A stretch of 64,000 nt of DNA, taken from the IMG/VR virus record IMGVR_UViG_3300035232_000745; one strand, 5' to 3'. The position numbers and the translations under genes were made by a program. This document shows positions 2,315-30,336 of this stretch, piece after piece. Under the pieces are notes generated by a model. It saw only the letters and a list, made by a program, of their open reading frames with translations. It did no database searches and was not told the origin of the DNA. The DNA is from a virus. How positions within the stretch are numbered: position 1 is the stretch's first letter; every line of letters starts with the position of its first letter.

Positions 2315-2346
2315 CTGTTTACATACCTATAGAATCAGTGTAGGTT
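2311..2346 (+). promoter_or_regulatory. sigma70-like promoter with inverted TGATTCT (GANTC) in spacer
   Basis: TTTACA 2318-23, 17 nt, TAGGTT; AGAATCA at 2331-37. Confidence 0.6.
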
Positions 2347-2537
2347 GTATGTAGGTGAAACAAGACACTGCCTGACAATAACGTCGAAGAGGTCTAAGAA
2401 AGCCTAAGCGTGTTGGATCCGCATTGTTTAGGTGGGTATGAATATCTGGTACCGAAGGAAACCCAGGCGTTGCTACGAGCGAGACAAGTAGATAAGGGGA
2501 GGGACACTCGAGAAAGTCCCTCCCACGAAAATAAAAG

Positions 2538-2653
2538 TCTTTTTAATTATGGCCGGATGACAGGAATTCATAGGTTACGTTATTGCAGTAACAGGCCTAA
2601 CCGCTGCAACGGTTTCCGAGGTTCAATTCCTCGGTCGGTTATAATTAAAAAGA
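2538..2653 (+). ncRNA. non-canonical tRNA-like structured RNA
   Basis: T-arm CCGAGG-TTCAATT-CCTCGG, acceptor-like stem extended by a 13-bp perfect inverted repeat, two internal hairpins, no CCA. Confidence 0.55.
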
Positions 2654-2658
2654 TTTAT

Positions 2659-2732
2659 TAGGGTGTAGTATAATGGCAGTACAACGGATTCCAAACCCGT
2701 TGGCGTGGGTTCGATTCCTACCACCCTTGCCA
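2659..2732 (+). tRNA. tRNA-Trp(CCA)
   Basis: anticodon loop TTCCAAA, GGTTCGATTCC T-arm, G discriminator plus CCA. Confidence 0.9.
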
Positions 2733-29174: not shown

Positions 29175-29248
29175 TATTTTTATCACATATTACTTTTAAT
29201 GGGCCTCTTGTATTTACATTTGGCCCATTTTACATTATATATACTTAG

Positions 29249-29500
29249 TGAACGTTGAAGTGACGTGAATACGGATCGGACCGCGGGGCAGTACCGCGCA
29301 TCTCCACCACAAGCGCATTATGTGTGTTTTTGATGGGGATGAACTAGGATCGACGGACGGGATAGCTAAGTGGAGTTCATCGGGTGATCGCGTATAGATC
29401 AATTAAACTAAATGCAAATGAAAATTTCGCACCATCTGGTTATGCTCTAGCAGCATAAACACAGGGGGTTGGCAACTTACCTAGCAACAGAAAAGTTCGC
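29249..29500 (+). ncRNA. ssrA: circularly permuted two-piece tmRNA
   Basis: 3' CATCTCCACCA (ends 29309) lies before 5' GGGGATG (29335) with a G3-U70 pair; tag ANENFAPSGYALAA* at 29414-58; outer ends approximate. Confidence 0.92.
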
Positions 29501-29535
29501 ATACATACAAACTATTAGAAAAGGAAAGAAGTAGT

Positions 29536-30336
29536 ATGAATAAATTTTTAACAACAACAGCTTTAGTATTTTTAGGAACGTCAGCATTCGCAGAGGAAGC
29601 TGCTCCAGAAGCACCAGCGGCAGTCACACTCGGTGGCTCAATCGAAACAGTAATCGCAGAAGGTGCAAACGATAAGTACGGCGCTACTACTTCGTTCGAA
29701 CTTAATGGTAATCTTGCTAACGGCTTAGCAACAGGCTCAATGGATTTCGTAGTAGGTTCTTCAGATGAACTTAAATTAGACGAATGGTCAATGGGCACAA
29801 CAGTAGCAGGCATGGGTTTATCTTTCGGAGATCAAGGTAATGCATGGATCTCAACTGAAGCAGGTTCAACAATCGAAGAGCCAACTATGAATGAAAGCTT
29901 ACAAATTTCAGGTTTAGGCGCAACAGTAGCTCTTGGATTTACAAGTGTATCTACAGACGTAACAGATATTTCTAATGTTCAAGCAACATACGGTATGGAT
30001 CTTTCAATCCTCGAAATATCAACAGCTGGTGACTATAACATTGATTCACAAGACTGGGTAATTGCAGGTCGTGCAGATACAGCAGGAATGATTGACGGAG
30101 TTCGTTTAGGCGGTGCAATGTCTTACGGTTCAGCATCTGAAAATATTGGTTTTGAAGCTGACGCAACAGTAATGGGCGTAACTGCTTACTTATCTGGTGA
30201 TCAAGACGATATGGCTCAGCATGTAGGTGGTTCATATACATACAATCTAAAAGGTTTAGATCTTGAAGGTGCAGTAGATTATGACATCGATGCAGAAGCA
30301 TACACACCAAAAGCGACTTTAAGCTTTAACTTCTAA
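29536..30336 (+). CDS. outer-membrane porin
   Basis: signal peptide AFA, amphipathic strands, C-terminal LSFNF. Confidence 0.8.
   Translation: MNKFLTTTALVFLGTSAFAEEAAPEAPAAVTLGGSIETVIAEGANDKYGATTSFELNGNLANGLATGSMDFVVGSSDELKLDEWSMGTTVAGMGLSFGDQGNAWISTEAGSTIEEPTMNESLQISGLGATVALGFTSVSTDVTDISNVQATYGMDLSILEISTAGDYNIDSQDWVIAGRADTAGMIDGVRLGGAMSYGSASENIGFEADATVMGVTAYLSGDQDDMAQHVGGSYTYNLKGLDLEGAVDYDIDAEAYTPKATLSFNF

What the first reader, a model, noticed from the sequence alone, without database searches (positions are those of the whole stretch)
2538..2653. tRNA-like RNA with two exactly complementary hairpin loops and a 13-bp extended closing stem
Seen: just upstream of tRNA-Trp is a good T-arm (CCGAGG-TTCAATT-CCTCGG, 2616-34) and an acceptor-like pairing (GGCCGG/TCGGTT). 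There is no CCA. Instead the stem is extended by a perfect inverted repeat (2538-50 with 2641-53). In place of the anticodon and variable arms are two hairpins, GTTA-[TTGCAG]-TAAC (2579-92) and AACCG-[CTGCAA]-CGGTT (2599-2614). The two 6-nt loops are exact reverse complements, and both contain GCA, the Cys anticodon. Inference: this looks like a selected structure rather than a decayed tRNA-Cys. It could form kissing loops or hand-in-hand oligomers (as phi29 pRNA does), or act as a tRNA-mimic decoy for anticodon nucleases or tRNA-binding defence proteins.
Basis: partly seen in the sequence, partly recalled or inferred. Interest (0 to 1): 0.75.

Follow-up and report, generated by a model that had tools for sequence, protein, structure and literature searches.

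The report
Small phage tRNA-mimic with kissing loops
A marine phage carries a roughly 90-base RNA gene that keeps the top half of a tRNA but replaces the codon-reading end with two hairpin loops that evolution keeps matched to each other; it is a compact, uncatalogued cousin of phage T4's long-unexplained 'RNA C', and its job is untested.

Summary
Pattern scans found about 33 related records, roughly 16 independent, in IMG/VR viral contigs and phage-like metagenome contigs. Stems are only about 34% identical, yet the two 6-nt loops are exact complements in every member: the loops swap, one outer pair shows all four Watson-Crick types, and a homologue found without fixing the loops has CUGGCG/CGCCAG. 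So the loops pair with each other, and the Cys anticodon is not what is conserved. The 13-bp extension is part of a 22-bp stem that belongs to the slot: relatives wrap unrelated small RNAs in such stems there, so it is probably a processing signal. CCA is encoded in 1 of 17 members against 39 of 42 neighbouring tRNAs. T4 rnaC has the same plan at 139 nt (function unknown), and this scan has noted that design on other phage DNA before. Best reading: a processed, non-decoding tRNA top-half mimic locked by kissing, more likely between molecules than within one. No expression data; function inferred. New variant of a known kind.

The parts
2317..2342 (+). Promoter-like site heading the ncRNA/tRNA-Trp unit
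   Evidence: Motif GTTTACA..TRTA occurs 7 times, all on +, against 0.9 expected; pattern was derived by eye from two of the copies, and the generic sigma-70 scan does not list it. Inferred.
2347..2526 (+). Upstream unannotated structured RNA ending in a 9-bp GC hairpin (2497-2524); marks the slot
   Evidence: Conserved in related phages; no Rfam hit at gathering score. A separate RNA, context only.
2535..2550 (+). 5' strand of the AU-rich closing (putative processing) stem
   Evidence: 16 pairs with 2641-2656, continuous with the acceptor; like stems wrap other cargo RNAs in this slot.
2551..2556 (+). Acceptor-like stem, 5' strand (pairs 2635-2640)
   Evidence: a G-to-A change at 2551 in L019 turns G-U into A-U.
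2557..2571 (+). Reduced D-like hairpin with GG in the loop
   Evidence: MFE; variable across the family, with a GG shortly after the acceptor in most members (by inspection).
2572..2598 (+). Long arm (anticodon position), 9-10 bp with internal loop
   Evidence: loop-proximal pairs 70/85 paired with several pair types.
2583..2588 (+). Kissing loop 1 (UUGCAG)
   Evidence: Complementary to loop 2 in all members, with compensatory changes.
2599..2614 (+). Short arm (variable-arm position), 5 bp, with kissing loop 2 (CUGCAA, 2604-2609)
   Evidence: 62/68 cells paired, 3-5 pair types per position.
2616..2634 (+). Canonical T arm (loop UUCAAUU)
   Evidence: 84/85 cells paired; the T-loop motif was part of most search patterns.
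2635..2656 (+). Acceptor 3' strand, A at the discriminator position (2641), no CCA, then 3' strand of the closing stem
2659..2732 (+). tRNA-Trp(CCA), ordinary, with encoded CCA end; downstream neighbour

Best explanation
A phage non-coding RNA gene of an uncatalogued family (core 85-93 nt). It is co-transcribed with tRNA-Trp (inferred), cut out of the precursor at the 22-bp closing stem, probably by RNase III (inferred), and folds into a tRNA top half (acceptor-like stem, T arm, D-region GG) whose lower half is a long and a short arm (shown by covariation). The two 6-nt loops form a 6-bp kissing helix (shown by covariation). It cannot decode and is probably not charged (6-nt paired loops, no encoded CCA). 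The kiss is more likely head-to-tail between molecules, giving closed dimers or small rings (about 55%; inferred from arm geometry), which would hide the nuclease-prone loops and present several tRNA elbows and acceptor ends. Most likely use: a stable, non-cleavable tRNA-shaped competitor for host proteins that grip the tRNA top half during infection, such as tRNA-attacking defence enzymes (inferred, about 35% for this last step).
For: Family: 22 records segmented, more. Loop-loop helix 102/102 cells paired in 17 members; outer pairs 34/34 Watson-Crick, best of 100000 shuffles 29/34; pair 6 shows AT, GC, CG, TA; median stem identity 34%. Test with no condition on loop 1 or on complementarity: 11/11 viral hits with a T arm and a short second hairpin are complementary (one is an intron tRNA), against 1/19 in GTDB. 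Loop-blind scan: L660/L742, 71-74% identical to L343/L223/L305 and syntenic, have CUGGCG/CGCCAG, three further compensatory changes. The loop order differs between the window and syntenic L337, and between close relatives L010 and L179. CCA 1/17 versus 39/42 in neighbouring tRNAs. Stand-alone copy 16 nt behind a sigma-70-like site in L222. Precedent: in ROOL and GOLLD, phage RNAs near tRNA islands, kissing loops found by covariation proved intermolecular (PMC12286853).
Against: Covariation cannot tell cis from trans pairing. Members with no linker all have a bulge in the long arm, those with regular arms have a 2-3-nt linker, and the loop-to-loop path is 13-16 nt; this fits a hinge for kissing within one molecule just as well. 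The geometry model is crude. No conserved partner protein was found. Nothing here tests the decoy role. Stems were part of my filters, so their pairing percentages are inflated, and most members were found by fixing UGCA.
Confidence: 0.4

Rival explanations
1. Same RNA, but the loops kiss within one molecule: a monomeric tRNA mimic whose lower half is clamped into a compact, nuclease-resistant domain, the miniature of T4 rnaC.
For: Fixed loop-to-loop path of 13-16 nt and a hinge (bulge or linker) in nearly every member; short arm plus 6-bp kiss is about as long as the long arm; T4 rnaC has a long bulged arm and a 10-bp arm with complementary loops.
Against: Several members have an unbroken 8-10-bp arm, a 2-3-nt linker and loops closed directly by covarying pairs; closure would need an unusually sharp bend (crude).
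Confidence: 0.3
2. A structural or storage RNA: the kissing builds cages, filaments or condensates (ROOL/GOLLD-like) or tethers a protein, and the tRNA half only recruits host processing and modifying enzymes for maturation and stability.
For: ROOL and GOLLD sit in phage tRNA islands and assemble by kissing loops (PMC12286853); Y RNAs use a tRNA-like domain as a module (PMC4201824); the slot takes several unrelated structured RNAs.
Against: Only two sticky ends per monomer, so rings or chains rather than cages; no Ro60/TROVE gene in five member contigs, all incomplete; no conserved neighbour gene.
Confidence: 0.15
3. Anticodon-specific decoy or anti-tRNA: the loops imitate or capture tRNA-Cys(GCA) or tRNA-Ala(UGC) anticodon loops.
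For: UGCA is present in 17 of 18 non-redundant members, and the commonest loop 1, CUGCAA, equals positions 32-37 of a Cys anticodon loop, so descent from a tRNA-Cys is plausible.
Against: Loops are 6 nt; outer bases covary with each other, not with a fixed host tRNA; L660/L742 lost GCA from both loops and kept the pairing; UGCA was fixed in most of my searches, so its frequency is inflated.
Confidence: 0.07
4. Packaging-motor RNA like phi29 pRNA.
Against: Found in tRNA clusters of T4-like and other phages and replaced by unrelated RNAs, or by an almost empty stem, in close relatives; T4-type motors need no RNA (own knowledge).
Confidence: 0.03
5. Decayed tRNA-Cys or a chance fold.
For: No CCA, weak D arm, not recognised by tRNA models.
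Against: Compensatory changes in four helices and in the loop-loop helix across distant phages.
Confidence: 0.02

Closest known systems
Phage T4 rnaC (species 1 RNA, NC_000866 70908-71046)
   Same: In a phage tRNA cluster; T arm and acceptor-like ends; a long and a shorter arm whose 6-nt loops are exact complements, UUGACG/CGUCAA; CCA not encoded; function unknown (PMC3014915; expressed late, PMC9697503).
   Different: 139 nt with arms of over 20 and 10 bp, against 85-93 nt with arms of 8-10 and 3-6 bp; different loops; no sequence similarity (T4-like genomes gave no match to the element); this family keeps a D-like element. I found no paper describing the rnaC loop pairing.
ROOL and GOLLD RNAs (PMC12286853)
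   Same: Phage non-coding RNAs near tRNA islands, unknown function, kissing loops supported by covariation that proved intermolecular.
   Different: 550-830 nt multi-domain cages with many bridges; not tRNA-shaped; no Rfam match here.
Bacterial and phage Y RNAs, YrlA (RF02553; PMC4201824)
   Same: Non-decoding RNA with a tRNA-like D/T/acceptor domain, present in phages, long terminal helix.
   Different: YrlA has permuted T-then-D order, a Ro60-binding motif and an adjacent Ro60 gene; here the order is that of a normal tRNA, with no GNCGAA motif, no Ro60 found and complementary loops.
phi29 pRNA (own knowledge)
   Same: Two complementary loops that could link monomers hand in hand.
   Different: No tRNA top half in pRNA; 4-bp loop contact; tied to the phi29 motor and essential, whereas this RNA is an exchangeable accessory.
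Class II tRNAs and tRNA-Sec-like tRNA-Cys (RF00005, RF01852)
   Same: Four-arm cloverleaf with a variable arm, canonical T loop.
   Different: Anticodon arm twice as long, 6-nt loop, reduced D arm, no CCA; no model match.

Membership tests
tRNA (RF00005 / RF01852) | Match to tRNA covariance models | tested here: not met
   No ARAGORN call or Rfam hit up to E 5 in the window; none for 11 member loci up to E 1; ARAGORN labels a few as tRNA-???.
tRNA (RF00005 / RF01852) | 5-bp anticodon stem with 7-nt loop | tested here: not met
   8-10-bp arm, 6-nt loop closed by covarying pairs.
tRNA (RF00005 / RF01852) | T arm and acceptor-like stem of about 12 bp together | tested here: met
tRNA (RF00005 / RF01852) | CCA end and aminoacylation | tested here: inconclusive
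   CCA encoded in 1/17 versus 39/42 neighbours; addition after transcription cannot be tested.
T4 rnaC-type RNA | tRNA top half plus two arms with complementary 6-nt loops, in a phage tRNA cluster | tested here: met
   T4; this family.
T4 rnaC-type RNA | Sequence homology and size (about 140 nt, long arms) | tested here: not met
   blastn of the element finds nothing in 50,697 phage records; rnaC hits are confined to T4-like enterobacterial phages; size 85-93 nt. Works like it, not shown to be a member.
T4 rnaC-type RNA | Stable processed transcript during infection | not testable with these tools
YrlA Y RNA (RF02553) | Model match, T-before-D order, GNCGAA motif | tested here: not met
YrlA Y RNA (RF02553) | Adjacent Ro60/TROVE gene | tested here: not met
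   0 of 5 member contigs, 11-65% complete; window neighbours are an epimerase and a methyltransferase.
ROOL / GOLLD / other Rfam phage RNAs | Rfam model match and size over 500 nt | tested here: not met
phi29 pRNA | Loop-loop complementarity allowing rings | tested here: met
   cis or trans not resolved.
phi29 pRNA | Essential, linked to a phi29-type packaging motor | tested here: not met
   T4-like phage; slot exchanged in relatives.

The most novel reading that the evidence does not exclude
A natural tRNA-shaped RNA that self-assembles head-to-tail through its anticodon-position and variable-arm loops into closed dimers or rings, displaying several tRNA elbows as a multivalent, uncleavable sponge for host tRNA-targeting defence proteins; it would be the minimal member of a widespread phage class that includes T4 RNA C and would explain that RNA's function.
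Probability: 0.2. Interest if true: 0.85.

Novelty: new variant of a known kind. Interest (0 to 1): 0.6.

Why it matters
T4's RNA C, made in its tRNA cluster, is still listed as of unknown function (PMC3014915, PMC9697503). This family shows, with strong compensatory evidence, that a tRNA frame with mutually pairing arms is kept by selection in unrelated phages, and does so in about 90 bases: small enough to synthesise, mutate loop by loop and solve. Natural loop pairs with different sequences (UGCA type and UGGC type) give ready-made swap controls. If it oligomerises, it adds a tRNA-based building block to the short list of natural RNA assemblies; if it shields against tRNA-attacking defences, it is an RNA counter-defence. 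It also shows that some 'undetermined tRNA' calls in phage genomes are a distinct RNA class.

Tried and rejected
blastn against 50,697 cultured-phage records with four members as queries: no homologue, so no lab phage is in hand. Rfam and ARAGORN: no family. MAFFT alignment A1 misplaced the second loop; the RNAalifold-based model R1 nested the loop-loop helix and was not used; covariation was counted on anchored, ungapped registers instead. A scan anchored on acceptor ends returned ordinary tRNAs only. L203 (tRNA with intron), L245 and GTDB hits (tRNA-Ala), L208 (tRNA remnant), L005-type hits (nested helix) and L335/L475 (Sec-like tRNA-Cys) were excluded. The nested fold that pairs the two loop hexamers as an ordinary helix is 3 kcal/mol worse in the window and conflicts with the covarying arm stems. 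Protein-coding reading rejected. Fremin et al. 2023 (PMC10690425) list candidate tRNA-like viral RNAs, two overlapping tRNA-Cys calls; their supplement is not held, so overlap with this family is unchecked. Literature searches found no description of the family.

Full report
Observation. Folding 2530-2665 gives -45.6 kcal/mol, z -5.71. The structure is a four-arm cloverleaf: acceptor-like stem 2551-2556/2635-2640, a small D-like hairpin 2557-2571, a 9-10-bp arm 2572-2598 tipped by UUGCAG, a 5-bp arm 2599-2614 tipped by CUGCAA, and a canonical T arm 2616-2634. The closing helix runs for 22 uninterrupted pairs. ARAGORN and Rfam see nothing there. The overlapping 83-codon ORF has a stop in a 95% identical relative.

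Setting. The window is a T4-like marine phage: gp32-type single-strand binding protein 51-54% identical to phages Melnitz, S-SSM7 and Mosig, helicase and ribonucleotide reductase genes, and a permuted tmRNA of alphaproteobacterial type, which points to an alphaproteobacterial host (inference). The element lies between an unannotated structured RNA (about 2347-2526) and tRNA-Trp, behind a repeated promoter-like motif at 2317.

The extension belongs to the slot. In 51 viral loci with the same upstream hairpin, the position holds several unrelated cargo RNAs, none with a T loop, nearly all closed by AU-rich stems of 17-27 pairs; some hold an almost empty stem. None matches Rfam. About half of the family members found elsewhere have no long extension. 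A duplex of 20 or more pairs is the size RNase III cuts (established knowledge), so I read the stem as a release signal for whatever RNA is placed there (inference). The exchange also shows that the RNA is an accessory.

The family. Scans of viral, metagenome and genome collections, filtered by structure, gave about 33 records, 18 after removing near-duplicates and about 16 independent. The core is 85-93 nt (one expanded member, L291). They lie in tRNA clusters or stand alone between genes; in L222 the RNA starts 16 nt after a sigma-70-like site. The only GTDB hit is a contig of a Rhodobacteraceae bin that carries the same phage region; that scan was truncated.

The loops pair with each other. 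In 17 members the six loop-loop pairs are formed in 102 of 102 cells; the two outer pairs are Watson-Crick in 34 of 34, and the best of 100000 shuffles reaches 29; one pair shows all four types; stems have median identity 34%. Because I chose members partly on structure, I repeated the test without any condition on loop 1 or on complementarity: of viral hits with only UGCA fixed, all 11 that have a T arm and a second hairpin are complementary (one is an intron-bearing tRNA), against 1 of 19 in GTDB. The loop order differs between the window and L337, which shares its upstream RNA and closing stem, and between the close pair L010 and L179, so the switch happened at least twice (read from similarity, no tree built). 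A scan blind to both loops found L660 and L742, 71-74% identical to L343, L223 and L305 with shared upstream DNA, whose loops are CUGGCG and CGCCAG. Three more pairs changed together and GCA is gone. This removes the Cys anticodon as the conserved feature, although the common loop CUGCAA suggests descent from a tRNA-Cys.

Not a decoding tRNA. The anticodon-position loop has 6 nt and is committed to pairing. CCA is encoded in 1 of 17 members, against 39 of 42 ordinary tRNAs of the same loci. The T arm and the roughly 12-bp acceptor-T helix are kept, so the top half is probably still read as tRNA by host enzymes, as shown for YrlA (PMC4201824); untested here.

Within or between molecules. Arms are about 8-10 and 3-6 bp with 0-4 nt between them. 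A crude model needs an inter-stem angle of 90 degrees or less to close the kiss in one molecule, sharper than the 120-150 degrees I recall for 6-7-bp kissing complexes, and in ROOL and GOLLD loop contacts found by covariation were intermolecular (PMC12286853). Against this, the fixed 13-16-nt path and the hinge in nearly every member fit a cis clamp. I put trans at about 55% and cis at about 35%. Duplex energies of the loop pairs are -6 to -9 kcal/mol, better than either loop with itself, which favours head-to-tail order.

Function. Shown: a conserved, phage-borne, non-coding tRNA mimic with a loop-loop helix. Inferred: processing at the closing stem, oligomer formation, and a role as a stable competitor for proteins that bind or attack the tRNA top half. 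No conserved partner gene supports or contradicts this, and there are no expression data.

Comparison with what is known. T4 rnaC has the same plan at larger scale: loops UUGACG and CGUCAA on a long and a 10-bp arm, then a T arm. Its role is unknown (PMC3014915; PMC9697503; PMC12685909). There is no sequence link, so this works like rnaC but is not shown to be its homologue. It fails the membership tests for tRNA, YrlA, ROOL/GOLLD and pRNA. Earlier notes of this scan report the tRNA-frame-with-kissing-arms design in many other phages; those are unchecked except for T4, and none matched this family by sequence.

Verdict. Real, selected, uncatalogued, and the smallest well-supported form of a phage RNA design whose best-known example is unexplained. 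New variant of a known kind; interest 0.6.

Noticed in passing
window 2347-2526: Separate unannotated structured RNA behind the 2317 promoter, conserved in at least 51 marine phage loci; weak sub-threshold resemblance of its 5' part to cow-rumen-1 (E 0.96).
   Followed up: partly
L027-L077, slot after the conserved hairpin: An exchangeable ncRNA slot: several unrelated small RNAs (42-195 nt), each inside an AU-rich closing stem, none in Rfam.
   Followed up: partly
L731:3457-3604 (-): A cousin RNA with T arm, long closing stem and another complementary loop pair, CUGGAA/UUCCAG, with an extra arm.
   Followed up: no
L005:1691-1829 (-), also L007, L016, L018: Short RNAs that look like only the tRNA-like domain of tmRNA (about 80 nt, no tag frame seen); missed by ARAGORN and Rfam.
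   Followed up: no
L335:852-947 (-), L475:275-365 (-): tRNA-Sec-shaped tRNA-Cys(GCA) genes; in L335 the variable-arm loop is complementary to its own anticodon loop, a possible model for how the family arose (selected by my pattern).
   Followed up: no
L733, L735, L737, L738: tRNA-like gene whose anticodon arm is a self-complementary 8-bp hairpin with a palindromic tip (ARAGORN tRNA-???), a possible homodimer former.
   Followed up: no
window 29204-29549: Phage-encoded permuted tmRNA of alphaproteobacterial type with tag ANENFAPSGYALAA.
   Followed up: no
L010:982-1055: Duplicate of the tRNA-Trp gene with a changed anticodon, called tRNA-SeC(tca) by ARAGORN; possibly a UGA suppressor or a pseudogene.
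   Followed up: no
G001 (Rhodobacteraceae Water_Bin34; L404 = contig C166): This bacterial bin holds several contigs of phages related to the window, probably mis-binned.
   Followed up: partly
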